Positions 359 through 61,008 of a DNA stretch of 64,000 nucleotides are shown here, one piece after another (the first letter of the stretch is position 1; each line of letters begins with the position of its first letter). The notes under the pieces were generated by a model, which did not search any database, was not told the origin of the DNA, and worked only from the letters and a program-made list of their open reading frames with translations. The position numbers were made by a program, and so were the translations under genes. Origin of the DNA: Isurus oxyrinchus. Taxonomy: Eukaryota. The DNA lies in NCBI GenBank assembly GCA_026770705.1, contig JANJGN010000089.1, positions 1,302,001 to 1,366,000 on the forward strand, given 5' to 3'.

Positions 359-431
359 TGCGATGTCGGGGAATTGAACCAGAGTCAACAGCTTGAAAAA
401 GCAAGACCGCACACTACTATCCCACCATCGC
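359..431 (-). pseudogene. tRNA-Gly(TCC)-derived pseudogene
   Basis: Reverse complement GCGATGGTGGGATAGTAGTGTGCGGTCTTGCTTTTTCAAGCTGTTGACTCTGGTTCAATTCCCCGACATCGCA is colinear with vertebrate tRNA-Gly-TCC. The acceptor stem GCGATG/CATCGC pairs, but the T and anticodon stems are broken. Confidence 0.75.
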
Positions 432-439
432 TGAATTGG

Positions 440-1060
440 GTACTTTCACAGCAGCAAACTGTCCCAAGGCACTTAAGAACGTTATCATTAAAAATATGGC
501 TGATGCTCAGCGACTGATGGAGAACTTAGGTCTGGTGACAAAAGCTTTCTCTGAGAGGGAGATTTTAAGGAGTTTCCAAAAGATGAGAGGGAGCTCGAGA
601 AGTGGGGCGGTTTGGGAAGGGCGCCCATGATTTTAGACCAGGTCAGGTGAATGCACGGTTGTCAATGCAGTAGAGAGTAAAACCCATTATGTGCAAGATG
701 ACAGTAGAGCAGAAGTAAGGAAGTTTTCTTGGGCTGGAGGAGGTTAAATAGAAATAGAGGGGTGAATTCAGGGAGATATTTTAAAGTCAGGATGAGTGTT
801 TTAAATATGAGGCATTGCCGGGTTAGGCGTCAGTGTCGGTCAGAAAACATGGGGGTGATTGGTGAACTGAACTTTGTTCAGGTGAAGTTCCAGGAAGCAG
901 AATTTTGGTTTAGCACAGGTGTATGTAGGGTGGAGATGGGAGGCCGGCCAGGGGAACACTGGAATAGTCAAGACCTGAGTGAACGAAGACATGGATGAGA
1001 GTTTCAGCAGCAGGTGAACTGAGGCAGGAACGGACTTGGCCGATGTTTATGATGTGCAAG
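440..1060 (-). mobile_element. decayed L2-type LINE 3' fragment
   Basis: Antisense similarity to the L2-like sequence at 33515-35012; no intact ORF. Confidence 0.5.
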
Positions 1061-2951
1061 TCCATTCTGTTCATCTGATAACATCCTGTCAGAGTCTCTA
1101 TTATCATGCAGTTTTATCAGATATATTGGAGGGGAAAATAGATACAGCGTCAAGTATTATTGATCAATGTTGGGATTTTTGCTGTATCTGTATTTCTCGA
1201 AAACTATGCCAGTGCCGGACTTTTCACATTTCATTGCAATTCGAAACTGAACAGAATATCCCAGAATGTGGCCAAGGACTGACAGCCTTTAAGTCTGACA
1301 TTTTCCCCTTGAAGTAGCCCAATTGGGAGCATTTCCTGCAGGACATTTGTTGTTCATGAACTATTAATATCAATAATTTGTGGGTTCACTGAGGAGGATG
1401 AAGTGTCAGTGAACAGACTGGAGTGTCACAGTTATTCTGTTCCCACTCTCCAGCTCCCAGCCTTTTAGTGAGGAATCGGTCTCCCAGGGATTCTGTTGTC
1501 CCCATTTTCGCCCGATTCCCGACTTTTAACATTGAGTGAACTGGCAGCTGCCAGTAACTCCAGCATTGGGATCCTGGTGAGTTCATTGTGTTCAGTGTTT
1601 AAACAGCACAATAACAAACAAGGTTCATGAGGAATATCATAAATCAGATTCAGGATTGTATGAGGTCACGGGGGCAATGTGCGCTCTCGACCTTCTGATT
1701 CAGGTTCCTGAACGTTACGGAAAAATAAATTATATTTGTTGCATTGTTGCTGTTGTGGTCGTATGGATTATTAGATGATGCGTCTCACTTCTGTTTGTCG
1801 TGCAAGGTTGTCAGAAGATTGTCGGGCAGAGTCCTACAATTTTTCTTATCATTGTTCCATGCAGATAAATTGCCTTGTACAGAAGTTCTAGCGCACTTTG
1901 TGTGTAGAATTATTTTTCAATTTCCCGCAGTAAAATCTCTGGCTTTAAATCTTCGATGGTGGCACTGAGTCGTCTGTTCACAGTCAAGGGGAATTGTTTC
2001 CGATTTTCCATACCTGTTCAAACTTGCAAAAAATTATATAGAATCCTTACTGCAATCATGACGAATTACGACGGCACAGGGACAGTCAGTGGGTTATATG
2101 TAGAGACTGAATTGTGGTTTGGTGTCGGGAATTGAAGAGTATCAGGAGGGAGTTCAAGAGACAAACAGAGTTGCGAAGGAAGACAACTGAATGATTGGCG
2201 AGGAGGAAGAGAGAAGAATAAAAATGGCGTTCATCATCTTTCAAATTTTATTCAATGAAAGGCCCAAAGAGAAAATAATCTCTGTGCCAGGGATCTGCTG
2301 ATCGTGAAATGACCAGAAAATAGAACTGGAATTTGGAGAATCATCTTGTTCGCTGAGGGAGAGGCAATGCTATAAGAAAAGAAAAGTTAGGAGGGGTGCG
2401 GTGATGAAAGGCAGGATTCTGAATAGCTGTTGTCCGAAAGCAAAGGAAATAAAGGGCAAATTGCATTTTAAAAATGAACAAAATGGTGGCAGAGATTATA
2501 ATGTATATAACCCTCTCATTTTACAGTCACTGTTTACAAGATGCAACTTTACTGTGAGATTATGAATGAATTCTGCTTAGTTAGATTACAAAGTCGTGTA
2601 TGGCCAGTTCCTCTCGGTTTTAAAATAACTTATTTCAGCAAACTGTCCTGCTTTCAAACAGCTAAATTCAATGATTTCACAGAAATGCCGATTCAGCCTA
2701 GTTTAAGTGAAAGAGCCAACATTGGTGTTAGGACACATATCGAATTGTGGGCTGACTGTTGGAATGAAGGGCCGTTCCTCTCAAGGAACACTAAAATACC
2801 GGTATCTCTAAAAAACTACTGCTGATCCTGAATCTCCCTGTCGCTGATAAGAAATATTTATCCGCACTGTCTTTTACATATCAAACTGTCTAGTGTTAAA
2901 GTCCATTTCCAATTTCGTGTGTTTTCTTTCTTAAAGATAAAAAGAAACCTA

Positions 2952-3023
2952 CGCCTGATTGCGGAATGGAACCCTAGTCTTCCTCATGATCAGTTGGCAT
3001 ACTAATCATTATACTAACGAGGA
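2952..3023 (-). pseudogene. tRNA-Asp(GTC)-derived pseudogene
   Basis: Reverse complement starts TCCTCGTTAGTATA, identical to the 5' end of vertebrate tRNA-Asp. It continues atgattagtat...agactagggttccattcc (A-box and B-box relics); the anticodon arm is degraded. Confidence 0.75.
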
Positions 3024-4699
3024 GTTTCGAAGCTTGGCGCAGAGTGGAGAAACCTAGGGTTATCTTCACTCAGTAACAACTGAAAGTGCTGAAGTGGTAA
3101 AATGTGTGACTGGAGGTGTTGCGAGCTTCCTTCTGTTGTTTCATTGATTAGAAGGATGACAGGATGCCTTCTCTGAGGGAACTCGCTGTTCCTCAATCCC
3201 AATCAGGAATTTATGATGCTTGATAATCTACAGATTGACAGAGTTGTTGAATTGTCCTCTGATCAGCACATGCATATGATGAAGCATTCCTCGTTAGGAG
3301 AGTGTCTCGATTTGTCAATGAGATATTGCGGCCGACAGTTAGATCTGCGGATGTAATACTCACACCAGACTTCAGGGAAATTGCCAATATCACGACTTGT
3401 CACTGAATACTCGGCAGACGCCTGTGCACAATAATATGCACGGACTGATGAAATAATGTAAATCCTGCAACTGCAGTTAAAGCCTAGGAGAGTTCGGAGA
3501 CAATGGAAGTGTCATCAATTCAGGTTATCTGTTTTGTGGCAAATGCTGGCAAAATAATACTTCCTCTGACCCCAATTTGGGGTTTCTAAAACGAATAGTG
3601 ATTTATTTTTTTCCTCTTGAAGCATTTCCTGACCGGGAACACCGGTAAGGTAAAATGAAGTTTAAAATGAAACGTGAATATATTTATGTTCACCCTGCAG
3701 TGACGGGGAAACCTCCCCGTCCACGCCCCCCACCCCCCACACCCCAGCCACGCCCTGTCATTGTTCTGTCCAGCCTCCTGCTGGGCCGCCATCTTGCATT
3801 TGTGCAGCAGCTATTTATTATTCAGTTCAGCTCTGTCTATCCCGTCATTGGCTCTCCATTCTATCTTATGAACTCCGAGAAGGCAACGCATTCGCTTGAT
3901 AAAATCACAAGGGAGAGTCTCTTTTCCTGAAACATTTGGTCCCAGGCCGAGTGTTTATTTCACCACCCAGACGTCCCTTAAAATTACATGCAATATATTA
4001 ACTTGCTTTATAAATGCCTGGTTACTGGTTGTTATATGCACTCGCCCTTGTCAGCGTCAATGGCCTTCAAGGGTAAAGACTTCTTCCTGTCTGCTGTAGA
4101 AGTTTTGCCCTTGCAGCTTGAGTTCGGTAGGACATCACTAGTAAAGGCTGCATTCACCAGGTGGCTTCCAACCAGATTTCTCTTTTCTAATTTTTTCAGT
4201 ATCTCCAGTTGTTCCAGTGCTAAAAAAAAATTGACGATGTTGCAGTTCCACCTTCTCTTGGCCTTGGTGTTGAAAGTTAGGGATTTAAATTGCTTTCCTG
4301 ATTGTACAATGACTGCAAATGTGTGTTGCTGCTAAAACATCATGGGGTGTGAAAACTAGACATGATATTTTAATTTCCTGAGCGAATTGTACTTACGTCA
4401 AATCTCCCTTCCTACTCACATTCTTAAATCCTGCCTCCAAGAGTCATCCTTTGTGTAAAAATGGTTTCTTGTGGGCCCTGGAGCTAGGCAATTTCAGCAT
4501 GCATGAGTGGTTGATTGGTTGTTGTCCTCTGAGTTTTGCCATAATGCTGGGAATAACAGCTCGTCTGTTTACAAAAGATTTAAAAAAAATGTTTTAATGA
4601 TGGACATTCAACCATCATAAACAACGAGTCTCAGTGAGATCGCTGTGATTTCATCTTTAAATTCCCACACTGGTGACAAGAATCAATCATTGGTGTTGA

Positions 4700-5134: not shown

Positions 5135-6950
5135 TTTGCAAGGAATGTCTCGGGAAAGTCTAGGTTGACAACAGGATGCGACCACTCAATGTGACCTAAT
5201 TTCATGTAATGGAGGGAGGATTCCACAAGCACTCACCCAATTTTGATCTTCAAACCTGCTCTCAATTGCAACCTTTGCCCTCCAAGAGACCAAAAATGTC
5301 CCACTTGAGCAGCAACTTACCAGGGTTCAAAGCATCAGTGGAAAAAAGAAAGGCACAGATCTTTATCTTGCTCCACGGAAGAATCCAAGGGTTATAAATG
5401 CAATGCCGTCGAGGGATTATCCAGGTGAATTTCACTACATTCAATTCCAGAATCTCTATTCACACAACTCTGTTTTCAGGTGCCTCAAATAATTCATCAT
5501 AATGTGTATGGACACGGTAATCACACACTGTAGAGGAAGTTGCTGATTAGTGGGGTGCAGCAGGGAACAGAGAATTCTTACCCAGATTGTCACACAAATA
5601 ACATGCTCGTGACTTGGCCCAGCTGTTCAACTGAGCCTGTGGCCTCTCGTTCTTTGCACTCAGGATACCATTCTACTGCCTGGGGGAATCCATTTCAGCC
5701 TGTCACACTCGGTAGCTGAACTCTGGCATGCATGGAGATGGATAAAATGGTGTTAGACCTGCGATGCTCGACTGTGCTTGCCAATTACCCTACCACATAC
5801 GTTCGGTTGTTGCCAAATGAAGCTCAGCAGAATGTGGCTGTGAATGCAGCTGGTGAGGGGCTCCGCGTCTCATTGGCCTGACGTGGCTGTTTTCATTCTG
5901 ACTGGGGGCAAAACGTTAAGGCTCAGCCTCCTGCTGCCTTTCCTCCTTCCCACTGGCTGGATCAATTGGCTCCTTTACGTTGTGTTTGTATGGAGTGTCT
6001 GTTTCCACCAATGCTGAGCACTGCTAGCTGCCACTGGTGGAGGTTGACACTGTCCTGGCAGTAGTTGGTTCCTCCTCCTCCTCATCCTCAAACTTCGCAA
6101 TTATCCCTGGAAACAGCGGTCAGCTGGGCTTCAAAAACTAGATTCAAGTGAAAGAAGCTGTTTTCACTTTTTTTCTTTGGTGTGCCACTCCCATTGCCAT
6201 GGAGTCCAGCTGAGGAGATGGCACACTACACTTGGTCTTTACTTTTTTCACCTTCTGTGCCCTCACTCCTGCAGCATGGTGACCAGCTGCAGATTAAAAG
6301 TGTGCTGGGAGATCTTGATCTCCATTCTAAACTCGGCAAAAATAACATTGGAATGTCTGAGAATTCAGTCAATTTTTAATGAATAGGATTGATTTAACGG
6401 GGTAGTTTCTATTATATTTTCTGCAGCTTTTAGCATCTGCCTCAGTATCAGCGCAATGATCATTGCATGTACTGCACTGTTTGGACAAGAATCTAAATCA
6501 TGGGCCTGAATTCATTATGAAATGGATGACTTTGACCTATACTCGGAAGCCCAAGCAGAAGATTTTGGGAAACAATTACTTAGATTCAGTTCCTAACCCG
6601 GTTTTTGGCCGTTTTACAATCGGCATTGTTTGGCAGGTCCCCAGAAGGATTCAATTAGCTACAATTTCCCCAGCAAGTGGGCTCAAATTCACTGCGGCCT
6701 CCTGTGTGCAGCAACAGAGGAAAATGAAGACAGCTTACGGCCAATTTACAAAATGTCCCCTGAGATCTTTCCTTGTACCATTCATTTAACCCACCCGCAC
6801 CCCAACACCACTCCCCACCTCCCCCCTCGACCCCCACCCTTCCTGTCGAACCTTCTAGTCGTTCATGGCAGACAGCGGTTCAATACTGGTGAAGAGCTCC
6901 ACGATCCAGGAAACTGGACAAAACTTTCGGGTCACTGTGGCTGGCTCTGC
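5135..6950. mobile_element. possible highly decayed Harbinger-type DNA transposon pieces
   Basis: Weak GFH (5215) and FRCL (5475) transposase-like peptides, an acidic tract on the minus strand (6070-6090), and a TIR-like gggcctgaatt at 6502. Confidence 0.3.
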
Positions 6951-6951
6951 T

Positions 6952-9900
6952 AGGGGCGCTGAGTGAAAAGTACAGCACAGGAACAGGCCCTTCGGCCATT
7001 CAAGCCTGCGCTGATCATATTGCCCGTCAACTAAAGCATTTTGCACTTCCGGGGTCCGTATCCCTCTATTCCCATCCTATTCATGTATTGTCAAGCCGCC
7101 TCTTAAACAGTACTATCGTACCTGCTTCCACGAACTCCACTGGCAGCGAAGCCCAGACACTCACAACCCTCAGCATAAAAAAAACAGTTGCCCCTCATAT
7201 CTCCTCTATAGTTTTCCCCTCTCACCCTAAATCTATGTCTTCTTTTAATTGACTGTTCCACCCTATGAAAAATATTCTATCTACTCTCTCCATGCCACTC
7301 ATAATTTTGTTAACCTCTATCAAGTCGCCCCTCAATCTCCGTCGCTCTCATGAGAACAATGCGAGTTTATCCAACCGCTCCGCATAGCTAATAACCTACA
7401 GACCAGACAGCATCCTGGTAAACCACCTCTGCACCCTCTCCAAGCCTCCATGTTCTTCTGGTTATGTGGCGACCAAAATTGCACACAATAATCCAAGTGT
7501 GGCCGAACCAAGTTTCTATACAGCTGCAGCTTGACTTCCCAGCTTTTATGCTCAATACCCCTGCCAAAGACGGCAATTATGCCATATGCCTTCCTGACTA
7601 CTTTATCCACCGGCGTTGCCACCTTAAGTGACCAGTGGACCTGTGCACCCAAATCCCTCTGCCCGTCAATGCACTTAGGTTTTCTGCCATTTACTGTATA
7701 ATTCCTGCCTCTATTAGACCTTCCAAAATGCATTAACTCACATTTGTTCAGATTAAACAACATGTGCCATTTCTCCGTATATTTCTGCAACCTATCTATA
7801 TCCCGTTGTATCCTTTGAGAACCCTCTTCACTATCTGCAACTCCTCCAGCCTTAGAGTCGTCTGCAAACTTACTAATTAGCACAGTAACATTTCCTCCAA
7901 ATCATTTATGTATTCTACAAACAACAAAGGTCCCAGAACAGATCCTTGCTGATCTTCACAAGTCGAAGCTCGAAATTCAGAAAAGCACATTTCCACTGCT
8001 ACCCTCTGTCTTCTATGACTAAGCTAATTCTGTATTCATCCTGCTCACCTCTGATCACGTTACCTTCTGTACCAGTCTGCCATGAGCGACCTTGTCAATG
8101 GCCTGACTGAAATCCATGTATATAACATCCATTGCCCTTCCATCGTAGATCATCTTTGTCATTTCTTCGAAAAACTTGAACAAGTTAATGAGACATGACC
8201 TACACCTCACAAAAGCATACTGCGTCTCACTAACACTCAAATTTGCTTCCAAATGGTATTAAATCCTGTCAAGAAGAATCCTCTCCAATAATTTCACTCC
8301 CACTGATGTAAGGCTCACCGGCCTGTAATTTCCTGGATTATCCCTGCTACACCTGTTAAACAATGAAACAACATTAGCCATTCTCCAGTCATCTGGGACC
8401 TCACCCGTAGCCACTGAGGATACAAAGTTTTCTGCCAATGTCCCAGCGATCTCCTCCATTGCCTCCCTCATTACTCTGGGGTGGATCCCATCTGGCCCTG
8501 GGGACTTATCCACCTTAATATTCTTCAAAACGCCTAACACCTCCTCTTTTTTTTATCTCAGCATGATCCAGGCTATCTACACCCTCTTCCCTACAAAATT
8601 GACTGCTAAGTCCTTAGCTTTGGTGTATACTACTGAGAAGTAATCATTTAGTATTTCTCCCATTCCTTCCGTCTCCCCACACCTCTGCCCTGCCCTTTAA
8701 CTGGCTACCCTTTCTGTTTTTACCTGTGTAATAAATGGCCGTGAGATTTTCCTTAATCCTGGTTGCCGGTGACTTTTCATGACCACTTTTATCCCTCCTG
8801 ATTCCTTGCTTAAGTTTCTTCCTACTTTCTTTATATTCTCCACGTGCTTCATCAGGTTCAAGCCTTCTAGCCCTCACAAATGCTTCCCTTTTACTTTTGA
8901 ATAATGACGCATTGCACATTATACAAGGTTCCTGAAACTTGCCATGTGTATCCTTCATCCTAGCAGGAATATGCTGGTCCTGAAGTCTTATTGACTGACG
9001 TTTGAAATCCCGCCCACAGGTCAGTTGTTCATTTGCCCTCAGACATCCGCCTCCAGTCTAGATTCCTCAGTTCCTGCCTAACATTATGATAATTAGCCTT
9101 GTCCCAATTAAGCACCTTAACCTGAGGATACTTGTTATCCTTATCCATCAGTGCCTTGAAATTTAGTGAATTATGTTCACTTTTCCCAAAATGCTCCTCT
9201 GCTGAAACATCGATTACCTGTCCGGGTTAATTCCTTATTTCCAGCTCCAGTATTGCCCCTTTCCTAGTTGGACTATCTACATATTGTCTCAGGAAGCCCT
9301 CCTGGATGCACCTTACAAATTCTGCACCATCCAAACCCCTAGCACTATGTGATTCCCAGTCAATATAGGGAAGGTTAAAATTACCCCAAGACTACAACCC
9401 TATTGCTGTTACATCTTTCCAATATCTGCCTACAAAACTGTTCTCCAATCTCCCGCCGGCAATTGGAAGGACTTTAGTAAACGTCCAAAATTGTGGCTGG
9501 ACCCTTCCTATTCCGCAGCTCTACCCATATTGCCTCACTGCATCAGCCCACCGAGGCGTCATCCTGTCGTACAGCTGTGATATTCCCCTTAACCAGCAGA
9601 GCAACTCCCGCACCTCTTCTACCACCCTCTCTATCCTGCCTGAAACATCCAAATCCTGGAACTTTTATCTGCCAATCCTGTCCATCCTTCAACCAAATCC
9701 CTTTAGTAGCAATAATGTCATAGTCCCAAGTGCTAACCAAGCTCTAAGCTCATCTGCCTTGTCTGTTATACTTCTCACATTGAAAATAATGCATTTCACT
9801 CCCCCAGTCACACTGTGTTCAGTAATTTCTCCCTGCCTGCCCTTCCTCTTAGTCCTATTGGCCATAATCAATGTTTCACAGTCATTTATTTCACCTGTTT

Positions 9901-12300: not shown

Positions 12301-14084
12301 AAGACCCTTGGGCTATTGAATACGTGCATAACTGTTTCCATGGCATGGCTTGATCTTGGTATATATTTATAAACGTCACCTTGGTGAATATTAAAATATA
12401 TTAAAAAAAAATTCTGTTCTAGATTTATTTATCTGAATTGGTCATGACTTAATTTTCATTAATCCATTGTGCTTGCCTGTCAGATTTGTCTTTTTCTCAT
12501 TGATCACACTGCCAATGTTTTCCACTCAGGTCCGTATTGGACATCTAGTGATTTACATATTCTATTAAATCACTCCTTGTTTTAGGACTGCATTGAGACT
12601 AATTCTTCAGTGAGTTTAATATTTTTCTGTTAAGCTCCAAGTGGAAATCAACAACTCTCTTGGGCATTAGAAATTCCCAACGAGAGCCAATGCAAGATAT
12701 GGGACATCGATAAGAACAGCTCTTTGACTTAATTTCCAGCTGCAGGTCCAGGATTTCATTGATAGCGTCGACAATTCCCACAGTACTTCACTTCGACAAG
12801 CAGATGTTTGCGATCTGCCCCTTTTCATCTGGACAGAGTTGCAGCAGATTCAACCATCAATTCCTTTATAGATTCTACTGTTTGTTGTCTTTGGCAAGAT
12901 TATGTCCATGAGATAGATCGTTCTCGCAATTCCATCCTGCTCTGCTAATAGTTTAGTGAAAAAATAATAATCTGCCTTAATTTTACGATTTTGCATAGAA
13001 CAAACGTATCATCCGATTTCTTAGTTAACCCTTCGGTAGACATTTAAAAAAATATTTTAATGCATACTTATACACGTAATTCCCTTTCATTTTGCAACCT
13101 TTGAAGACTACCACACCTACTTTACAATTGACACAGGCAGCTGTTTTACGGATATTCAGGTAATGCATGGTGGAGTCCACTCTTGTTGATCAATTCGGCA
13201 CTCAATTCCTGTTTTTCCTTTCATTAAGGCACTCATTGCTACCTTTGACTTAGATTTGGAACACTTTTGTTTTCGAACATGGCAACAAAGTGTGAGCGTC
13301 ACGTAGAAATTAACGAACCCCACTGAGGTACAAATCGCTCACAAACAGTGCACTCCAGAGATAAATCTTTTTTATTCCCACGTGCGCTAATGATCCCTAG
13401 ATAGCATTTGTGTTTATTTTATTTAAATTTGCTAGACCCAGCTGCGGCCGGGGAGAATCAATTTATGGTCCAAATAGTTTCCCCAGGCATTATTCTGCAC
13501 CCCCCCCCCCCCCCACCCAATACATACAACTTTATTCTGTGCTTAGTTCTGTGATGCACATGCAATTGTAAACTTCAACGAGCATTGTAGAGGGCTATTA
13601 ATCGGTGTCCAATCCGGTACCCTTACAGTTGTGCAATTGTTTAATGGGGCAGCGCATTTAGAACTTTATTCTACATCTAACGTCGTGTTGTACCTGACCA
13701 CGTGAAGTTTTGACGAGGCAGTGTAGATTGAACTTTACTCCGTCACAAATCAGCACTGAAAGTATGCTAGGAGAGTTTGCTCAAAAAAGGTGGAGGATTT
13801 TTTAACATGATCTACCTTGTTCACCATAGTGTAAATATTCTACAGTATGTCTTGATTTACTCATTGAAAACGTCAATATTAACCTGTGGTCTTTTCTGTT
13901 GTATTGATTTTCCTGCGATCAGTGTGAATGTCTTATAATACATAATCAGTCACTGGCAGCATTTTGTTGCCCACACATGGTCTGAGTAAGTGTGAAAATG
14001 TTACCCAATATAATTTGCCGTACGTGGGAGAACGGGTTGAACACGATACGATTTACATTGCTGGAATGTTGTTACTTCCTAGAA

Positions 14085-14955
14085 TCATTTGATTAAATTT
14101 ACAACTGATCTACTATGGCAATGTAAAATATTTTTCAAGTGTTTCCTGAACTTAGCCTGAGTCATTGCAGAAAAATAAATGTTCGTGCAGCATCCAAAGA
14201 GCTGGAGCACGTATCCCAGTTCTCGGATATGCATGTGGAAACGCAGAATGATACCCCTAACACCACATTCGGTGCCATAGAGAGTACAGAGAAATATTGC
14301 CCAGAGCAGAATGAAAATCCCCGAGATAGCAAACAGCAAAATGTTGGGTTTTCTCCAACTTCCCAGTTCCAGGTCTCTGGATTTTCCGGCACTGCTGGGT
14401 TGACAGCGTCTCCTTCGAAATCTGTTCGATACTGTTATTTGTCGGGCATTCACTGCGTGCAACAACAGTATCAGAACAAATGAGTATCAGGGTGTGAAAA
14501 TAAATAGAAGGAGCCGAATGATTACCCAAACCAATGCTTGATGGACAATGTCATGTGCTTCACAAAACCAGGATCTGTTCGTATGCCAATCTTGACCTCT
14601 TAACATAAGATACCAGGTGCTGTCATTTAAGAAGCAAATGCCAAATCAACCATTTTCTTCGTGCAGGAATTAGTTTTCAACTTCTGACAACAACACGTCC
14701 CAAATCGATCAAATGTGAAAGTCATGTTGAACCAAACTGAACGGTCTGTTGCAGAAAGCAAAGCAGCATGAATATTACACACAGGGATAGACCGTATCAA
14801 TAGAAGCTGTCGCCGGTAAGCAATTGGGAACTTACGCAAAATCAGATCAATGATAATGATCTGTAGATCCGTCACTGTCATGGCCACCATGTAACGGCTT
14901 AAACATTTGGAGACACACTTTCCACGAGATCAGATTACAGTCGGGACTAACATAA
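14085..14955 (-). pseudogene. GPR139-like class A GPCR pseudogene (main coding exon)
   Basis: Peptides SRGKCVSKCLSRYMVAMTVTDL, SVWFNMTFTFDRFGTCCCQKLKT, SWFC, NILLFAISGIFILLW and GCCTNIYFSAMTQAKFR are colinear with the intact gene at 35522-36462. It has in-frame stops and indels, and its splice acceptor reads CTG instead of CAG after the polypyrimidine tract at 14956-14980. Confidence 0.9.
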
Positions 14956-16399
14956 CAGTAGAAAGAAAGAAAAAAGAAATATCATACACCACGCTGGGAC
15001 CAAAATCAAATTGAATATGTAAAGAGATTTACAAATGTGCTACAGCATGCAATGATGTAGTGAAAATGATGGCACCTTTGGCAGGGTCATCCGTTGGAGA
15101 CATGGACTACCATAGAAAGAAATCAATCACTATTTGCAAGTAATATTTGGCATAAGTTAAAATGAGGTTCAGTAATTTACAGAGGTATAGATGAATGCAA
15201 TTGTAGAATTGATGGTTAAGATCCGAGCTCGGATTATTGAGCCTGAATCTTTTGATTGTGAAGCAGATTCAGAAGTCACCAAAGCAGCCATTGCCTATTT
15301 TTTTTCCCCCATTGACCTGTGTACATTTAATCGAGCCAAGGACTTATAACAGCACAAAAGGAGCAACTGTACCTGATAGTATCCAATTGGTTCTCAATGA
15401 AAGATTCCAATCTGTGTAATTTTTCCTTTCTGTCCCGTTACAGGACATGCTTATCTAGCTCAAGTGTATACCCGAATTTATTTATAAACCATTGTTCACA
15501 CTTTGCTCATAGGCATCGAGTTCTAGTTTATTATGTTAGGAAGTTACAATAATACTCATACTTTTTTCTAAATTTATTGTGATTTCGAGTCATAGTCGGA
15601 TATATTTATATGTGTGTGCTTGTGTGTGTGAGTGAGTTAATTGAATTAATCTCGGTGATTTGATCTAAGAGGAGAGATTAGGCTTGCAATGTTAATTACA
15701 TAAACATGTTGAAGTTCAGAAAAATAGGTTTCAAGGGACCATTTGCATGGCGAAACAAACCAGGCTCGATTGCTTTCAAAGCAGGAGTGAGATGTGTCAC
15801 CTATCCAGGTGGAGTTTGGAAAGGGTGTGTTTATTTTTCCCAAAGATTACTGTTAGCACTTTGTACTCTGAGATGGTTCTATTATGAGGGAATGTAATGT
15901 ACAAAAACATAGCACAACAATGGGTCTTTGTATACTAAGAAGATAGGTATCAAGAACGAGCAAGTCTGTGTGCAGGAGAAGACATTTTACAAATGTGTCA
16001 AAAAGTCTTCAGCATCTATGCCTCAAATCGCTGTCTTCAAAAGATGAAGGTAAGATAACTCACTTGAAATTCGAATTGTTCAAGGTCTCAAGTTTCAACG
16101 CCTAGGTGTTTAATAATGTTTGGGCCTTACTGTTGCCTTAACGAAAATTGTACTGAGAGTTAGATTGTTTTGGTGGTTTTGAAGTTATCATAGCTATAAT
16201 TGGTAGACATATGCATGTATTTAAAATCACTTCTCTTATTAATTAATATCTTACCTACTTTGGAAACACCTCTAAGACCTGGTGATTGTGTCACTACTGA
16301 GTTCAAGGCACACATCTAGAAATTTATGGAATTTGAAAATTAGTTGTAATAGCTGTTTCCTTGAAGTGAACAGTGCACCATTTCCCATCGGCTGTCATA

Positions 16400-23300: not shown

Positions 23301-23339
23301 ATTGTCTCCATCTAATCAGCTTTAAAATATGGTAGGAGG

Positions 23340-32010: not shown

Positions 32011-32059
32011 AAAAACGGGCTGTTTCGTAACGTCAGTATTTTCGCGTTACGAACAGCAA

Positions 32060-33512: not shown

Positions 33513-33514
33513 AA

Positions 33515-41110: not shown

Positions 41111-41431
41111 ATCTCGCTTTTTGAAGACTAAACAACCCTTGTGCGGCAATCGATATTTAAATAAGAAATAGGGAACATCAGAGTGAAACTTATCCGAGAA
41201 TGACTGAATTTCACTTAATCCGAGTAATTTCATTTTCGTTCCACGGTGCAGCTCACGGAAAATCATAATTATTAAAAATGCGAAAAAAGGAAAAAAGCCT
41301 GAGTGAAAATTTAAATAGGTTTGTATTCCAATTGGACCCGCATGTATTGTCCAATTAAAATGCCTCCGAACCGCTTGAAGTGTACTTGCACTCTTATAGT
41401 TAACGGCTTCACGAATTTAGAGTTTGCATAC

Positions 41432-41503
41432 TAGCATGGACGGGAATCGAAATCGGATTCAATGCTTTGGAAATAACCATGCTAGTCACTATATCACCAT
41501 CTT
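41432..41503 (-). pseudogene. tRNA-Gly(TCC)-derived pseudogene
   Basis: Reverse complement gATGGTGATATAGTGACTAGCATGGTTATTTCCAAAGCATTGAATCCGATTTCGATTCCCGTCCATGC retains TTCCAA and TTCGATTCCCG. Confidence 0.7.
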
Positions 41504-42669
41504 TGACTGGTGAGGAGCTTTGGCGATTTTTTTTTTCCAGATTTTATTACTGATCTGTTCCTTTTTGGTAATCAGTATTTTTTTCCACTCCCATGAAATA
41601 TTAAGGATACGCTGATAATGATGTAACTTTTCTTAGTGTAAAGGTGTAGCTAATACCTGCAACATTTGATGAGATTCACAGATGTCTTTTTCTGAAGCTC
41701 ACATCAGTCATTCACTCAAGATAAATGTTAAGTTCAATTGTTGTTCAAAAGATTCAGACCTAGCACACATACATTTCCAGACACCAGACACATGCTCCAT
41801 TATGGAACTCTTATTCTGTCCGCCCCCTCCCCAATCTCCCCATTCATTAAATAATGACCTATGTTCCATTGTGCGGCAGATTTTCAAAGTGCACACAATC
41901 TTGGGCAAAGGGTGCAAAAAACTAGGAAATTATGAGCAACCTGTGTGAAACACTGCTTTGACCTTAGCTACAGTATTGTGCCCAGTTTTCATTGCCACAC
42001 TTAGGAAGTAGTGAAATTCAAACACTTACAGTCCCAATTGCCAAACATTACTATTTTCGTTACAACTGTATTTCTGGAAGCTGATTATAATTAAATAGAA
42101 AACACATAATTGGAATCAGGCATTAGAAATTGATGTCGGTTGTTACGGAGGACACATTGAGTGGAGATTAAGATTGTAAATCTCTCCAAGGGCCTTTCAC
42201 ATTTCAGTGTAACCTGAAACTGAATTTGAACAATAGACTGATACGCTTCAGTGTTTCCACTGATATTGTTCAAGTTGGGATCAAATCCTGCCGGACAATT
42301 TCTGCACATAAGAACATTAATATCAACGATTCCTGGGACAGGTTTCACTGAGAGAGATGAAGAGTCAGTGGACGAACTGTCACAGTTGTTCTGTTCCCGA
42401 CTCTCCAGCTCTCTGTCTGCTATTGAGGAAATTGTCTCGCAGGAAATGTGTTTCGAATTCCGCCCGATTAACACTAGATGAATAGAACGCTGCTGATCCA
42501 ATTTCCAGTATCTGGCTCCTGGTGAGGACACCGCTGGATTTTGCGTGCAATTGGAAGGATGCAATAATGACTAAGCATTGGGTACAGAGCAGTAACTTCC
42601 GTATCTCAAACAAAGGGATTAATGCGGCTCTTTGCGTCAATCAGGAGATTTATTAAACTCAATAAATCA

Positions 42670-43240
42670 TACAGGATTAGAATGATGCAGCACAGAAGCG
42701 ATGCCATTCAGACATCATGCCTGTGCGGGCACTCTAAAGGAGCTAATCAATTAGTTCCACTACTCTTTCCTTCCTCCATAACCCTGTGACCTCCCAACAT
42801 CACGGATTTGTTAAAATCCATTATTTAAGTTATTACTGTACCTGCTTCTACCACCCATTCAGGCTGTGAATTCCAGATTAAGACAATCTGCTGCATCAAA
42901 GAAGTCTTCTCATATCCCCCTCTTATCATTTTGTCAATTATCTACCCTCTGGTTAGCGCCTCTTCCCTCAATGGAAACAGGTTGTTATGATTTAGTTTAG
43001 CAGTTTGCTTAACTCCATTAAACCTCGTCTTAACACCTGCTGGAAGGAGAAGAATCCATCTTCCTTCTCTTTCCATGTAACTGCAGTCCCGCGCCTCTGT
43101 ACTCTACTAGCATATCTCATTTGCAAAATCTTTAGCACCTTGACATCTTTCCTAAAGCATGCGGCGAGGAATGGGTGATAATACGCCAGCTGGGTTCTGA
43201 CCAATCATTCAGAAAGGTTCAGTATATCTTCCCTGCTTTT
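42670..43240 (-). mobile_element. CR1 3' end
   Basis: VRTQLAYYHPFLAACFRKDVKVL (cf. [24 protein letters not shown]) plus 3'UTR. Confidence 0.75.
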
Positions 43241-43244
43241 GGAT

Positions 43245-45854
43245 TGCGGCCCTGTTCAGATTTCTAACTCTGGGAGGACAGATGTAGCTTTATTCCCTCT
43301 CTTGACTTTACTCTTCCTGGACACTTGCAGCAGTTAACGTATGACAGGCACGTTTCCCACATCTTCCTTCCCACATTGCGTAATCGAGCTCATATCGCCC
43401 CCCCAGCAGCCCCAAAAGGCAGCTGGGTCTTCGGATCTACATCCTCCGATGAGGTCTCATCCTTCTCCAGGTTGTACTCTGGCAGGGATTCGCCTCTTTG
43501 CATAGCTTGATTGATAAGAGCTCAAAATACTGCGATCTTGTTGGAAACCCTCTTGGGAGGGCATTGGGTGAGCTCCCTGAACGGTCCAGACATCTGAAAG
43601 CATCTTCAGAAGCTGTGTGGTCTGCTCCATCGGAAATATGTGGAGTACTGAGCACCATTTCACCTCTCCTCGGAACGAGTCTTAGGGTGAAGCACTGGTG
43701 TCATCAGCCAGCTTTTCAGTGCCCACCCCTTATCTCCAAGCAACCATCCCTGTAGACATAATGGCCCCTCGAAAATATCAGGCACCCGAGTTTGACTTAG
43801 TGTGTAGGATTTCTGGCAACTCCTAGGGTAAACCTTCATAAACGTGCAGGATGGGCTTTGGGTGATCACACACCAGTTATACCTTGATGGAACGATTGTC
43901 CTTGCGGTTTATAAATATTGTAGGCTGCTACCATGGAGCCCGTACATCTATAATGGTGCAATCTAGTTCACGCTGCACTTTTGCGAAGCTTGAGATGCTG
44001 GCGAAGCCGGTATATTTCACAGCCTGATGATCTTCGCCCAGAATGAGCCAGACTAAATGACAGGCCTTCCAACAAAGTGCAACCGTAACCTTATTTGTGC
44101 AACAATGTGCTGCGGACTGACTAACGCCACGCTGCCTGCTTGTTGAACATTTCAAAGATCCAGAAGCTAACAAATTGAGTGCAGTGGTCACCTTCAAAGC
44201 CACTGGCCAGGCATAGTCTCCAAATGAACGTGGGTCATATATTCACCAAGAATGTGGCAAATATGACATACCTGAGCTGGGGACAAGGGCAGACGTGCAT
44301 GGCAATGCCACTCATTTGATCTGTAAGTAGGAGACTCTTCAACGCTATGCCCTAGGTCTGGTGAGCCACCCCATTGTCTGGGAACAGCTACTGGCACTGC
44401 AAATGATGCTCTGGCTCTGCCTGACCATTTACCTCCTTCTGGAGGCACGCAGCGCCTTGTCTCCCTCCCCTGCCTCCTTGCTTACGTTAGGACCCTGACA
44501 AGGGCAGCATTGAGCACAATATCGCTGTCACCTTTTACCTTCCCTCTGAAAGGGAAATTTGAAGGTATTAACAGTTAGAGGCAACAAAGTTAACCTGTGA
44601 GGATGACACGTTTGGAGAATGTAAGGGTCCACAGATTTTTCTTCCATACCTGCATAGTGGCTGAAGCCAGCTTGTCCCTGAGACAGAAACACACAAACTG
44701 GGGTGACCAAGGTGGCATCGAGGATGTGTAAAATCTTGAGATCTGGGTGGGATGCTACAGATCAAAAGAGACGATTGGTCCAACCTAGCTCTGTGCTTCA
44801 ATCTCTGATATCACAATCAATGATCAATCAGTGATTCGATGACCTTTGCCCCATAAGGTGCGTCAACCCTGGTGAACACGTGGCAGATTGATGAAGTTTC
44901 CTAAATGATGCCGGTATTCCTTCTTCACTATAGCTTGCATTCGTAAATCCTCTTCCTAAGTGCTTCTATTGAGGTGCAGTGACTGTGGTTTTAAGCCACT
45001 AAGTTCAGAGTAACTCTTTAACACTGTTAAAGAAACCATTGGCTTTCAGGGCCTTTCCATCCAAGGAATTCTCCCTCCTTTCCTTTTAAGCGGATTATTG
45101 CTCACTCCTGCGGGAACAAAGGTTTAGAGTTCATTCCGAGAAAGGGCACACTCGTGTTCACCCTTCCCCCTAACTGCCATTTCACAGCCTTCCCCTCCGC
45201 CTGTTGCACTGGTGTTCACACTTTACCCTGGCGGCCATTGCACAACCTTCCCTCCCAACTGTCTCCCTCATGTTAGCCCGTGCAAATGTATGCCATCACA
45301 CGAGCTTCACTCCCCGATAACCCCTCGTGTTCATGAAGCCAGCCCTCGCCTCACAGCCCACCCCAAGTTGAAGTTTAAGTCACTAAATTTGGAAGCATGC
45401 ATGTGTATCGCAGTGCAGTGGTGCTTCTCGGGACAAGGTAGGCAAAGAGCAGGAGTACCCGACAGCCTGAGGAAAGTGGCATCCATCGCAATATCTCTCG
45501 AGCAGCTTTGGCCCACTCGCCTGGAGTTTGCCAGCGAACTGAAGAGCGACTTGTGCATGCCACCGTTTCACAAATGGATTTGCCGCCGATGTACATTCCC
45601 GCTGGCATTATGGAAGACTGAAGCCGTGGCCAGATTCCAATGAGAATCTACTTTAATGAACATTCGTGACATGCTAATGAATGCAAAATGAAATCATGCC
45701 ATTAGTTAGAGGGGTAATAAACGCCCCGTTAGTACCCCGTTAGGAGAATTGTAAGCTAATTTGTGACAGCTGAATTGTGACTTTTTGCCTGCTGCTAGGT
45801 TCTCCGCTTCACACCGCCACGAAACCCATGTGTGAGAGATGGGGAAATTCTCCC
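43245..45854 (-). mobile_element. PIF/Harbinger DNA transposon with decayed HARBI1-like DDE transposase (about 43440-44420)
   Basis: ALKVTTALNLLASGS, GVSQSAAHCC, FAKVQRELDCT (cf. FPQVQGAIDCTH), FINRK, GWLLGDKGWALKSWLMTP, EQTTQLLK and FRCLDRSG, with stops and frameshifts. TIR-like gggagaattt at 45845-45854; left end uncertain. Confidence 0.85.
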
Positions 45855-55599: not shown

Positions 55600-55675
55600 A
55601 ATTTGAAAGCTGAGAATGGTTAACTCGCGTTTAGAATTAATGCAAAACTCGCGGGTTTGATCTCATTACTGGTCA
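55600..55675 (+). pseudogene. tRNA-Ile(AAT)-derived pseudogene, copy A
   Basis: 3' half tcgcgggtttgatctcattactggtca vs tRNA-Ile TCGCGGGTTCGATCCCCGTACTGGCCA; 5' agctgagaatggtta. Confidence 0.6.
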
Positions 55676-57189
55676 GTGAAGCTTCTCTGTCTTAAACCCT
55701 ATGTTGATTACGATGTTCAGTTGCTGAACGGAAGTAGTGGACACACTACATGACGGTTGTAAATGGAAGGATTTGCTCCTGTAGGATTGATGTATTCATT
55801 TCATTCGTGCTTCTTGGAAAATCGATGTCTTTTGTTCTGACAACTCCCGGCTCCTTTAAACACTTCTGTGCCACCGATTTGTCGGTAACATATGATCAAA
55901 AATATTCTACTGTTCAGCCGAGCACTTGGAATCGAGCAATGACAATCGCTGTCAACTGTGTCCATCATTGTCGTTCGCTGCAATTTTGTAGGCAATATCA
56001 CTCGAGACAACTAGCAATCGCAAGAGCCACAAATCCCACTAGCCTATCTTAAAGTGATTGCATTAATGATATCACCGGCCCTCTATATGAATTTAAAACT
56101 CTGCAAACAACTTCACACAAATGCGCCCTTTGTTTAGTAAAGCCTGTTCATAAGCACATTTCTCAACATTCTGCTACTGGCTGGGCCAAAACACACTTTT
56201 CGCTTCTATGTTCCTGTTTGAGAAACTGCACAACGGACTCCTAATATGCTGTTAATTACTTTTAAACAAGCACAGAATGAAACAAAATACCTAACCTCGC
56301 AATGTGCACTTCATTGCTGGAGTATATTTATGAAACACATTATCAATGTGGCAGAGAACCCAATGTTATATGATTTTTTTTTCAATTTCCAATGTTTCAC
56401 ACATCGTCTCTTTACGAAGGCACCCAGCCGAGTTTAAACGCAAGACAAAAAAAAAATCAGCGAGTTCTCCCCACCGTGCTTTGGCGTTGCTGTATGACTG
56501 TTACTCTGATAAATATATCAATCATAAGGGCAATTGGTCTGTTAATTGTTCTGTCATTTACTAGTTTCCCAACTTGCTCTAATCGCCCAAAGTCATTGAT
56601 TGAGAGCCAGGAGGAAATATGTTTAAGTTCCCTGCAAATTCAACTTCCCCGAATTATACTACCAAATTTGAAAATCAACAGACAGTCGGTCATTTCGCTC
56701 TAAAGCCCTACTCATGAGTTTGTATTTAGAAACCACCTTACTTTTCATTCGTAATTGTGTCCAAAAGGTTCAATTGCAACAAACTTGAGAAACGGCAACA
56801 TCTCAAGTTCATTATTACTTCAATGTTTGAATTGCTCTTTATATTTAGCAATCCTTCTCCAGGGAATTCTGCATGAGCAACGTATAGTGGTCATGCGAGT
56901 CATGAGCACATCCCATGGAAGAAATAGGAAAAAAGAATCATTGCATCAGATTTGACGTGGAGATTTAGTTCATGTTGCCGTTTACTTGGGCTATCAGCAT
57001 ATTGAGGGCGAAACATTTTGAAGCTTGAGGTTACCTTACGGGAGAGTAGTTTGAATATGGAGAGGTAATAGGACATTGATGCTGCTGAGCAGCTCTGTGA
57101 AGATCCGGACAATCAGGCAGCTGTGGGGAAAAGCATTTCCATCCACATCGCTGGTAACCTGATGCTTTGAATTTGCAACATTTTTACTT

Positions 57190-58462: not shown

Positions 58463-58537
58463 CGCTGGTCAGCTCAGGTGCTTAGAGGTTGGCGTTAATT
58501 AAATGAAAGTCGACTGTTTGACACCCATACTGGGCGA
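58463..58537 (+). pseudogene. tRNA-Ile(AAT)-derived pseudogene, copy B
   Basis: cgctggtcagctcaggtgcttagaggttggcgttaattaaatgaaagtcgactgtttgacacccatactgggcga is colinear with GGCCGGTTAGCTCAGTTGGTTAGAGCGTGGCGCTAATAACGCCAAGGTCGCGGGTTCGATCCCCGTACTGGCCA. Confidence 0.65.
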
Positions 58538-60723
58538 TGCTAACTAGAAACAAGGTTACTGCGTTCCGGTAATATCCGGAAATGGCTGCTACTATCTTGT
58601 TAAATAAATCCGGATGGCGTCCTTGCTCCTATGGAGCCCCGCCAGTTTTCTTCATTCTTGCAAATGTCTGCCTTATGATGGAACAAATCCATCCTTCTTT
58701 TAACACATCCCAGCCACTCACCTGTCACTAATGTCTGATGAACCTTTTGCAAATTTACATTGGAACAGCTGCAAAAGGTGCAGGGGCATCACTGTCAACT
58801 GTGCTGATGCCTGCCATTCGCTGCAATGTTTCAGGCAAACTTACACGCACCAACTTGCCACCGCCAGTGCAACAAAATTTTATGTGTCTACCTCAAGCTA
58901 TCAACAGCCCTCTACACGAATGAATAACTTGCTTCCCAACAATTTCGTGTGAATGCTGCTTCTTTCAGCAAAGCATATTCGTAAGCACATTTTTTATGAA
59001 GGCTGCTGACTGGGCCAAAACAAACTTGCTGCTTCGAGGTGTCTTATTACAAAGCTACACAATGTGAAATTCATTTCTGAGACACTTGTAAGCAACACAT
59101 AATCGAGGTCGCTTAGAAACTTAAGCATTCCAGTAATCCTTATTGTCAATCTCTCATTGTTTTCACCTACCCCTGATGTTCTATCATATGCTGTCTGTTC
59201 CATCACTCTTAAACAGCATAAAATGCATCACAAAGTTATTCATGGATATGCTATGTCATATGAGAGAATGAGGCCTGCGAGTGCAGTCTCACTGAGCTGG
59301 TCAATGGAGGAAAGATATTCCAGTGTTAATAGTTTGCAGCTTTACAAGTCTATACAGCATGAAAATGGAAAATTTACTATAGCGTTACGGACCATTATGA
59401 GAAGTGTGTGGAGTTAAATTTAGCAGGATTTTTCTACAGGTCACTAGAATAAGTTAAATGTTTAATTAATTAACCAACCAGTCGTTTATTTACCTTTGAT
59501 ACTGCTGGGCGGAGCATAAAAAATCTTTCACCAGGCGTATTTCAACAAACACAAAATAATCGATTTGTTGGAAAACAAAGTTTTCTTTTGAAAACAAGTT
59601 GTAAAACTGGTTCACAAACAATTTGAAATTTCATTATATTATGTTTATTTTCGCATATAAGAAAAACAGAAATCCCAAAACCCATACACTCACTTCCAAA
59701 AATGAACGGAAAACAGATACGATATCTGCATGGTCCGGAGTGCAGGAGAGTTTTATTTTAAATGACAAAGTTTGATAAGTTCTCGACACTGTTGATCTAA
59801 CATAATTCTGGTCTCAATAGATCTGGAAATCCTTTTAGACGGATCTTAGATGATTCATTGTCATTGATAACTCTCGCTTGTCACAGTTTTGCAGACATTA
59901 GAAAAATATATATCAGTAATTTTGGTGAGCAGTTTCTGTTTGAAGGTGAAATCACTGCACTGCAGGCGATTCTGCTGAAAGGGAAGGGGGTTGGTCCGGA
60001 AAAGAGAGACAGACCCACTTTGCAAAAGTGAGCCTGTTCTTTGTTCTGTCACTTATTAGTTTTGCACTTGCTTCAAATGCATTAAGCCGTTGTTGCAGAA
60101 TCAGTCGGAAATATATTTTAGTTCCCTGTAATAGCAGCTCCCAAATTCTAAGCTCAACTGATGCGTTTGCAGTACTGTGCCAGCCTTACTTCTCAATTGC
60201 ATCAAGTTCCAATTCACATCTTCAATTGCATTAACCTTGGAATACGGCAACATTTTGATGCTGTATTTAGTTCAAGGTTTAACGTGTTTTCACTCCTAAA
60301 GTCAAGCAATCCTTCTCAAGGCATTTCTGGTGAGCAGCATTTACTGGCGATTTGAACCATGCCTACAGCGCATGAAAGAAATAGGCCGAAATGCAAAATT
60401 TCTAAGATCACAGCCTATTGATAGCGAGAAATTTTGCAGCTTGAGATTTTCCTTTCGCAGAATATCTTCCACTTCGATATGCAGGAGGGTGTTGAAATTG
60501 CTGAGCTGATTTGTGATTATCAGAACAGTCAGGCAGCGGTGAGGGAAAGAAAACATTTCCTTGCAGCTCGTTGGGAATCTGAGGCTTTCAAATTGCAAAT
60601 AAGATAGCATCAATTTTCCAGTTGGTGTGCGATCAGTCAGCAAGGAAGAATGCTGTATTGTCCCCTCAATGCTAGGATGAATTTGAAATGCACTTGGTCA
60701 TATGATTGAAGTCTGCTATCGAT

Positions 60724-60797
60724 GGCTGCTTAGTGCAGCTCGCTCAAGTGTGATACAAGTAATACCGACATTGCAGGGTTTGATCCTCATGTTTACA
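60724..60797 (+). pseudogene. tRNA-Ile(AAT)-derived pseudogene, copy C
   Basis: ggctgcttagtgcagctcg...gtaatacc...gcagggtttgatcctcat; same upstream flank as copies A and B. Confidence 0.55.
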
Positions 60798-60921
60798 GAG
60801 GAGGTCAATCTTCATTAAACCAAGCTCGGTGCTCCTCACGTTCAACTGCGAGATGCTGCGAATGCTCTAGCTAGGGTGCTTCAATTTCCCCCATCAAGAC
60901 TGGCTGGGTAGCACCTCTAAT

Positions 60922-61008
60922 GACCGAGATGGTCGTGTTGTAATGGACATAGCTGCTAGGTTGGAACTACAGCGCATTGTGAGTGGGGCAAAAGACTTGA
61001 CCTCGCCT
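60922..61008 (+). pseudogene. possible tRNA-Ser(GCT)-derived relic
   Basis: gaccgagatggtcgtgttgtaatggacatagctgcta...gagtgggg...cctcgcc vs GACGAGGTGGCCGAGTGGTTAAGGCGATGGACTGCTAA...GCGTGGGTTCGAATCCCATCCTCGTCG. Confidence 0.4.

What the first reader, a model, noticed from the sequence alone, without database searches (positions are those of the whole stretch)
359..61008. Fossil tRNA gene cluster interleaved with GPR139-like receptor genes
Seen: at least seven, possibly eight, full-length but eroded tRNA bodies of several isotypes lie in the non-TE scaffold: Gly 359 and 41432, Asp 2952, Val 40521, Ile 55600/58463/60724, and perhaps Ser 60922. They lack SINE bodies or tails. Known: vertebrates carry tandem tRNA clusters, and Gly-TCC and Asp-GTC are neighbours in the human 1q23 repeat. 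Inference: this was a tRNA cluster whose copies died in place while GPCR genes duplicated with it. tRNA-array recombination may have driven the receptor expansion, and residual A/B boxes could bind TFIIIC as insulators.
Basis: partly seen in the sequence, partly recalled or inferred. Interest (0 to 1): 0.7.

Follow-up and report, generated by a model that had tools for sequence, protein, structure and literature searches.

The report
Dead tRNA cassette riding receptor expansion
This stretch of shark-type DNA holds worn-out copies of real tRNA genes that were copied many times together with a very large family of orphan receptor genes, likely as dead or dying passengers from an old tRNA-and-histone gene cluster rather than as working parts.

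Summary
Mostly real, mechanism mostly ordinary. Against this genome's own intact tRNAs, four relics (Gly 358, Asp 2950, Gly 41432, Ile 58463) beat all 30 shuffles. Ile 60721 nearly does, Ile 55601 is proven by paralogues, Val 40521 is only likely, and Ser 60922 is part of a dispersed repeat. The relics are DNA-level gene duplicates, not SINE heads: their flanks match those of intact tRNA genes elsewhere in the receptor cluster. One cassette (Ile, Val, receptor, Ser/Arg, Lys, Asp, Gly, in some copies a histone H3 pseudogene) recurs on six contigs, in 10-33 kb duplicated blocks with GPR139-like receptor genes. Relic-like hits: 12 in 200 kb of flanks taken blind, 0 in 200 kb of control. Many were dead before amplification, and bodies diverge as fast as flanks. 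A/B boxes are not significantly conserved and duplication ends do not fall on relics, so the recombination-driver and TFIIIC-insulator ideas get no support. The scan noted the receptor family in this genome and a dead tRNA cluster in another shark, not their coupling.

The parts
358..431 (-). tRNA-Gly(TCC) pseudogene; full B box kept, anticodon reads TTC, T-run downstream
   Evidence: score 123, 76%; both flanks match a 96%-intact Gly-TCC at C17:88,406,820 (72% and 67%)
2950..3024 (-). tRNA-Asp(GTC) pseudogene; B box broken, T-run downstream
   Evidence: score 117, 71%; flanks 76% and 75% to intact Asp-GTC at C35:5,142,472
5738..6964 (.). flanks of the histone H3 pseudogene that paralogous cassettes carry; the H3 body is missing here
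   Evidence: 5738-6501 and 6834-6964 match both sides of the H3 relic at C278:169.4 kb; no H3 match in the window
14068..15082 (-). GPR139-like receptor pseudogene (exon 2, frameshifted)
   Evidence: nhmmer and hmmsearch with family profiles; 34% to the intact copy
29223..29292 (+). receptor exon 1 (ATG, 23 codons plus 1 base, GT donor)
35522..36462 (+). receptor exon 2; the spliced frame gives 336 aa; class A GPCR; dN/dS 0.23-0.34 against 7 diverged paralogues
   Evidence: Pfam 7tm_1 E=5.5e-14
40098..40211 (+). 3' fragment of a receptor exon, present at the same place in paralogous blocks
40521..40593 (-). likely tRNA-Val(CAC) relic, travelling downstream of the receptor
   Evidence: score 65, within noise alone; 17 of 29 genome matches lie 2.6-5.1 kb behind a receptor exon listed or 47
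41432..41505 (-). tRNA-Gly(TCC) pseudogene of a second Gly lineage
   Evidence: score 106; shared decay with C35 and C20 paralogues
55601..55676 (+). tRNA-Ile(AAT) pseudogene, first unit of a head-to-tail Ile/Val array
   Evidence: score 63; paralogues up to 116; 38 of 40 scored genome matches on contigs that carry receptor hits
   Evidence: score 65; 22-copy consensus 77
58463..58538 (+). tRNA-Ile(AAT) pseudogene, second unit
   Evidence: score 103
60041..60113 (+). likely tRNA-Val relic, paralogue of 56547
   Evidence: score 69; self-match 56539-56637 to 60034-60131
60721..60796 (+). tRNA-Ile(AAT) pseudogene, third unit
   Evidence: score 79; upstream flank matches the other Ile relics
60860..61570 (.). 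dispersed repeat that holds the claimed 'Ser 60922'; not a tRNA relic
   Evidence: matches on many large contigs; Ser score at most 44
21131..43280 (+). segmental-duplication block holding the intact receptor with the Val and Gly relics
   Evidence: collinear with C17 and in part with C20, C35, C47 at 72-74%

Best explanation
The relics are genomic duplicates of real tRNA genes that were copied in 10-33 kb blocks together with GPR139-like receptor genes, and they are likely neutral passengers from an ancestral tRNA-plus-histone cluster in which a receptor gene came to lie. Shown: tRNA identity, flank homology to intact genes, a recurring cassette order, co-duplication, shared decay, and neutral-rate divergence. 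Inferred: selection for more and different receptors (dN/dS about 0.3) kept the duplicated blocks. The redundant tRNA and H3 copies were free to decay, some once before amplification (Gly, Ile, Lys lineages) and some separately afterwards (Asp lineage). A few copies stayed intact by selection or gene conversion.
For: Flanks shared with intact Asp, Gly and Ile genes inside receptor regions. T-run within about 45 nt downstream in 39 of 91 elements against 22% background; poly-A in 0 of 91. Same cassette order on C89, C35, C20, C17, C47, C278. 53 of 81 receptor-bearing duplication blocks also hold a relic. Paralogue pairs with flank distance under 0.2 share 80-99% of decay changes against 18% for distant pairs; body distance 0.096, 0.150, 0.325 against flank 0.080, 0.122, 0.232. 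H3 relics at 5 places and an H2A relic at 1, inside or beside cassettes. A second species holds the Val+Gly segment at 109 differences in 2,154 bases, far below the 20-30% between cassette copies.
Against: B-box sites change somewhat less than matched sites (0.79 against 0.92, P=0.052; A+B P=0.065). Raw continuity across relics was lower than across random points (0.60 against 0.72), and block ends within 500 bp were in slight excess (17.5% against 13.6%, P=0.018, one of four thresholds). One Ser relic abuts a receptor exon at C17:88.387 Mb. Five of the six regions were chosen through tRNA hits, and only about 1.1 Mb of a far larger cluster was read. The order 'tRNA cluster first, receptor second' is inferred, not rooted on an outgroup.
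Confidence: 0.8

Rival explanations
1. Relics, or the few intact tRNA genes left among them, still bind TFIIIC and act as insulators that partition the receptor cluster.
For: B box marginally conserved (P=0.052). Gly 358 keeps a full B box, as do 18 of 91 elements. Four intact or near-intact genes persist in the regions read. Human tDNA clusters have insulator activity (PMC7567086, passages).
Against: Bodies diverge at least as fast as flanks. Only Gly 358 of the window's relics has an intact B box. Receptor-to-relic distance is no shorter than under circular shifts (P=0.14 and 0.51). The same paper reports TFIIIC binding without insulation at the HES7 tDNA.
Confidence: 0.1
2. Recombination between same-isotype tRNA copies drove the receptor duplications.
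For: Lower raw continuity at relics; slight excess of block ends within 500 bp; a local head-to-tail Ile/Val array, whose breakpoints cannot be placed.
Against: 22 of 389 block ends within 150 bp and 38 within 300 bp, at chance level. Continuity 86.5% against 85.8% once true segmental paralogues are compared (P=0.57). Most elements pair the same upstream and downstream flank lineage. The 73-bp bodies were already 20-35% diverged in most amplified lineages.
Confidence: 0.07
3. The relics are heads of a dispersed SINE or tRNA-headed LINE, retroposed tRNA copies, or chance matches.
For: No ARAGORN or Rfam call. Ser 60922 and the Cys-like hit at 48912 do lie in repeats. Three Val-like hits are within noise singly.
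Against: Eight isotypes at score >=70 besides a single Glu, both flanks shared with intact genes, no poly-A, 0 in control DNA. True SINE heads score to separate decoys and are as common in control (8 in 200 kb) as in cluster regions (3-9 per 200-264 kb).
Confidence: 0.03

Closest known systems
tRNA gene clusters evolving by birth and death (Velandia-Huerto et al. 2016, PMC4981973; passages read; author name recalled)
   Same: Tandem and local duplication, escape from concerted evolution, pseudogenes beside intact copies.
   Different: Here a whole multi-isotype cassette was amplified as cargo of a protein-coding family across many contigs, and most copies are too eroded for standard tRNA finders.
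tRNA plus histone superclusters: red stingray chromosome 28, human chromosome 6, zebrafish chromosome 4 (bioRxiv 10.1101/2025.06.08.657570; passages and section 6 read)
   Same: tRNA genes mixed with histone genes. H3 and H2A relics lie in or beside these cassettes, and live Gly-TCC/histone neighbours exist on C37 and C40.
   Different: That study discarded tRNAscan scores under 50 and has no mention of GPCR in its main text other than SUCNR1. Here nearly all tRNA and histone copies are dead and the selected cargo is the receptor.
Human extended MHC at 6p22: histone, tRNA and olfactory-receptor clusters side by side (recalled; search found no paper, only loose matches)
   Same: A fast-turnover class A GPCR family next to tRNA and histone clusters.
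   Different: The receptors here are not olfactory receptors by database name, tRNAs are inside the duplicated unit, and synteny was not tested.
Human 1q23.3 tDNA tandem repeat (Darrow and Chadwick 2014, PMC4041453; abstract and passages)
   Same: Gly and Asp neighbours in a repeated unit.
   Different: That unit is a 7.3-kb GC-rich, CTCF-binding array of Leu, Gly, Glu, Gly, Asp. This one is 42-45% GC, dead, scattered, and holds Ile, Val, Ser, Arg, Lys, Thr-like genes and receptors.
Human 17p13 tDNA clusters at ALOXE3 and PER1 (PMC7567086; passages)
   Same: Lys-TTT, Arg-TCT, Ser-CGA and Thr in one neighbourhood; that Ile-AAT, Gly-TCC, Asp-GTC and Ser-AGA lie close by is recalled.
   Different: Those genes are live insulators. 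Overlap of isotypes is a lead only; no flanking-gene synteny was tested.
Elasmobranch 'probable G-protein coupled receptor 139' family (database label); GPR139/GPR142/GPR210 group (PMC6504862; passages)
   Same: Class A GPCR, 81% to the best shark hit; 1,165 proteins at E<=0.001; every named hit among the 120 listed is from a shark, ray or skate.
   Different: Orthology to mammalian GPR139 was not tested; no solved structure matches at E<=1e-5; ligand and tissue unknown.

Membership tests
Functional tRNA gene | Intact cloverleaf recognised by covariance or structure search | tested here: not met
   0 by ARAGORN and Rfam; 5-10 of 11-12 acceptor and T-stem pairs left
Functional tRNA gene | Intact A and B boxes and anticodon | tested here: not met
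   Full B box only in Gly 358, whose anticodon is changed
tRNA pseudogene by DNA duplication | Full-length body above chance | tested here: met
   Four beat all 30 shuffles, Ile 60721 beats 29 of 30; Val copies inconclusive alone
tRNA pseudogene by DNA duplication | Flanks homologous to those of a parent gene; terminator kept, no poly-A | tested here: met
tRNA pseudogene by DNA duplication | Neutral divergence of the body | tested here: met
   Body distance >= flank distance in every bin up to 0.4
tRNA-derived SINE or tRNA-headed LINE | Dispersed copies with a shared 3' body or tail and unrelated 5' flanks | tested here: not met
   Cluster-restricted, both flanks shared, 0 in control; only the Ser 60922 stretch is a dispersed repeat
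Extra-TFIIIC site / tDNA insulator | Conserved B box | tested here: inconclusive
   P=0.052 for B, 0.36 for A; 18 of 91 intact
Extra-TFIIIC site / tDNA insulator | TFIIIC occupancy and enhancer blocking | not testable with these tools
   needs ChIP or CUT&Tag and a reporter assay
1q23.3-type tDNA tandem repeat | Head-to-tail GC-rich unit of Leu, Gly, Glu, Gly, Asp | tested here: not met
   Different isotype set and order, 42-45% GC; my only Leu reference was an internally deleted copy
Histone-tRNA supercluster | Histone genes mixed with tRNA genes | tested here: met
   H3 relics at 5 places and H2A at 1 in C17, C20, C278; none in the window, C35 or C47 stretches; no H4 or H2B relic at E<1e-3
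Histone-tRNA supercluster | Orthology to the conserved vertebrate cluster | not testable with these tools
   no other vertebrate genome is held for synteny
GPR139 orthologue | Phylogenetic orthology and ligand | not tested
   name is an automatic database label

The most novel reading that the evidence does not exclude
The giant shark-and-ray GPR139-like receptor repertoire was born inside an ancient histone-tRNA supercluster, and the Pol III genes that survive in it (intact Asp, Ile, Gly, plus B-box-bearing relics) still organise the cluster's chromatin. That would be an independent parallel to the histone/tRNA/olfactory-receptor neighbourhood of mammals, and would point to tRNA-histone clusters as recurrent cradles of receptor repertoires.
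Probability: 0.15. Interest if true: 0.75.

Novelty: new member of a known kind. Interest (0 to 1): 0.4.

Why it matters
The relics are lineage-tagged neutral markers. Their shared decay orders the duplications that built one of the largest unstudied receptor families in sharks (7,240 first-look candidates). They also tie that family to a histone-tRNA cluster, a type of region reported to be old in jawed vertebrates. Standard tRNA finders miss every relic in the window, so this history is invisible in ordinary annotation. The process itself, pseudogenes hitch-hiking in segmental duplications, is well known.

Tried and rejected
ARAGORN and Rfam found no relic in the window, and ARAGORN found none within 1.5 kb of 30 of 30 receptor exons. 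Patterns had wrong gap lengths (1 and 0 matches). My first scan produced false shoulder hits 60 bp beside strong hits; this was fixed, and the final counts are. A Cys-like hit at 48912 (score 66) was rejected because it lies wholly in masked repeat. A partial Val match at C35:4.757 Mb was another relic, not an intact gene. The low continuity at relics vanished when only pairs with at least 0.9 kb of one-sided homology were compared; it came from short, old matches between tRNA lineages. A gene-conversion tract around the intact Asp was looked for and not seen. In one search, copies under 10% diverged were left out of the pair table; one Ile copy from C13 probably entered through a repeat. Expression: no RNA holder was listed, and two runs guessed to be RNA gave cover mainly on a repeat; this is no evidence either way. 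A cross-species comparison of Gly 358 against its flanks was not obtained. Pfam on 74 of 191 candidate open frames gave only a histone, a NACHT protein, transposon domains and repeat noise. The queries included two LINE frames, whose hits were ignored. Nine literature searches found no paper on tRNA relics in shark receptor clusters. The library lacks most subscription papers, and the bioRxiv supplements, which list tandem gene clusters, could not be seen. The library lacked Gln, His, Met, Phe, Pro, Trp, Tyr, a full Leu and most Arg references, so counts are lower bounds.
Full report
Setting. The window is G000:C89:1,302,001-1,366,000 in a 4.98-Gb genome. Its intact receptor has exon 1 at 29223-29292 and exon 2 at 35522-36462, 336 aa when spliced. 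It is a class A GPCR whose named relatives among the 120 listed are all shark, ray or skate proteins, mostly labelled 'probable G-protein coupled receptor 139'. The own-genome search gave 7,240 candidates, of which 125 were scored, on many small contigs and on C20 and C35. dN/dS against 7 diverged paralogues is 0.23-0.34. The window also holds a receptor pseudogene (14068-15082) and a 114-bp fragment.

Observation. Structure-based finders see no tRNA. I built a library from this genome's own tRNAs and scored end-to-end alignments against shuffles. Gly 358 (123), Asp 2950 (117), Gly 41432 (106) and Ile 58463 (103) exceed the best of 30 shuffles (84). Ile 60721 (79) is beaten by one shuffle. Ile 55601 (63) and Val 40521 (65) are noise-level alone. 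Ile 55601 is rescued by its paralogues; Val 40521 stays likely. Ser 60922 scores at most 44 and sits in a genome-wide dispersed repeat. Two more Val-like relics (56547, 60041) make 55.6-60.8 kb a head-to-tail Ile/Val array.

Enrichment. At score >=70, SINE heads set aside, the counts were 17 in 264 kb (C89), 15 in 200 (C47), 15 in 200 (C35), 17 in 200 (C20), 18 in 164 (C17) and 10 in 50 (C278), against 0 in 200 kb of control from 20 stretches on 19 large contigs. Four of the 92 are intact or nearly so. Five regions were picked through tRNA hits. The fair comparison is the C89 flanks taken blind: 12 in 200 kb against 0; the copies are not independent. Genome-wide, 38 of 40 scored matches to Ile 55601 with flanks fall on contigs that carry listed receptor hits. 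For Val 40521, 17 of 29 matches lie 2.6-5.1 kb behind a known receptor exon. SINE heads are as common in control as in the cluster.

What they are. With bodies masked, the flanks still align to those of intact genes. Asp 2950 matches Asp-GTC at C35:5,142,472 (76% and 75%). Gly 358 matches a 96%-intact Gly-TCC at C17:88,406,820 (72% and 67%). Ile 55601 matches upstream to intact Ile-AAT on C278, C369, C188 and C35 (72-73%). A T-run follows 39 of 91 elements against 22% background, and none has poly-A. They are DNA duplicates of tRNA genes. One order recurs: Ile, (Ile), Val, receptor, Ser or Arg, Lys, Asp, Gly, Gly, Gly, Asp, with variants on six contigs. The window begins in the tail of one such cassette, whose head lies within 10 kb to its left. 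In C17 and C278 a histone H3 pseudogene sits between Gly and Asp, and C20 has two H3 relics and an H2A relic. The window keeps the H3 flanks but not its body.

Co-duplication and timing. Chaining repeat-masked alignments gave 425 blocks, up to 33 kb outside a satellite; 53 of the 81 that hold a receptor also hold a relic. The window's 21-43 kb block (receptor, Val, Gly) is collinear with C17 and in part with C20, C35 and C47 at 72-74%. On flank trees, decay changes follow the flanks. Pairs under 0.2 flank distance share 80-99% of changes, against 18% for distant pairs. By lineage: Asp 9 of 64, Gly-1 40 of 90, Gly-4 25 of 45, Ile-3 443 of 633, Ile-4 73 of 135. So the Asp copies died separately after duplication, while the others were largely copied dead. 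A second species holds the Val+Gly segment at about 5% difference, so the duplications at 20-30% are much older than that split.

Function tests. Bodies diverge as fast as or faster than flanks. After matching for base and CpG, A-box sites are not conserved (P=0.36) and B-box sites are borderline (P=0.052). Only Gly 358 in the window keeps a full B box. Within clusters, receptors are no closer to relics than under circular shifts. Block ends are at chance within 150 and 300 bp of relics, with a slight excess at 500 bp (P=0.018). Continuity across relics looked low at first but equals that across random points among true segmental paralogues.

Mechanism. Shown: identity, co-duplication, shared and neutral decay. 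Inferred: a receptor gene lay in a tRNA-histone cluster, selection kept receptor duplicates, and the tRNA and histone neighbours went along and decayed, with a few intact survivors. Confidence 0.8. Insulator role 0.1, recombination driver 0.07, SINE or chance 0.03.

Known context. tRNA birth and death in clusters is described (PMC4981973, passages). tRNA-histone superclusters are reported in a stingray, human and zebrafish (10.1101/2025.06.08.657570, passages and section 6). The 1q23.3 repeat has another make-up (PMC4041453, abstract and passages). Human tDNA insulators are discussed in PMC7567086 (passages). The GPR139/142/210 group is in PMC6504862 (passages). The mammalian histone/tRNA/olfactory-receptor neighbourhood is recalled, not read. 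Nine searches found no description of this coupling in sharks. Earlier scan notes cover the receptor family in this genome and a dead tRNA cluster in another shark; none of those shown links the two.

Verdict. The functional proposals are unsupported. New member of a known kind; interest 0.4.

Noticed in passing
G000:C40 (for example 110,803 and 109,556; 2,666,748 and 2,665,249; 7,703,683 and 7,705,058): Intact Gly-TCC genes lie about 1.2-2 kb from roughly 105-aa histone-fold (H4-like) frames at many places along the contig: a live tRNA-histone unit repeated over megabases. L140 (C37) holds H2A, H2B-like and H4 frames beside a Gly-TCC.
   Followed up: partly
L242:8067-9869 (G000:C35:5,118,067): A 601-aa NACHT/NLR open frame inside the receptor region; one copy in the regions read.
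   Followed up: no
G000:C116:612-637 kb and C89:862-888 kb (inverted): 99-100% identical copies of the window's 35-61 kb part: recent duplicates or uncollapsed haplotypes.
   Followed up: no
L218-L222 (G000:C47:390-425 kb): A 44-bp satellite of about 808 copies, 35 kb long, within the receptor cluster.
   Followed up: no
G000:C1:39.78-39.93 Mb: A tandem array of more than 80 Gly-GCC genes at about 1.85-kb period.
   Followed up: no
L155:9238 (about 760 bp left of the window): A Gly-TCC copy still called by ARAGORN, head to head with the dead cassette.
   Followed up: partly
L111:1488 (C35 Asp) and L124:1485 (C278 Ile): The intact Asp and Ile genes in the receptor regions lack a four-T terminator within 40 nt, so they may be read-through or maintained by conversion.
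   Followed up: partly
window 5010-5101 and 49958-50034: Heads of the common tRNA-derived SINE or LINE, distinct from the relics.
   Followed up: partly
window 31003-31188 and 37953-38054: An 81-bp-arm inverted repeat that scores weakly to miRNA models; it matches the end of a high-copy repeat at 37953 and is likely two repeat tails.
   Followed up: no
window 16753-17502: A 159-bp inverted repeat, 87% complementary, with 432 bp between the arms.
   Followed up: no
window 43928-44242: A frame that resembles a Harbinger-type transposase by eye (recalled motif); no Pfam match.
   Followed up: no
L282-L283 region, G000:C17:88,386,946: A Ser-AGA relic abuts a receptor exon 2 directly, the one clear junction seen at a relic.
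   Followed up: partly
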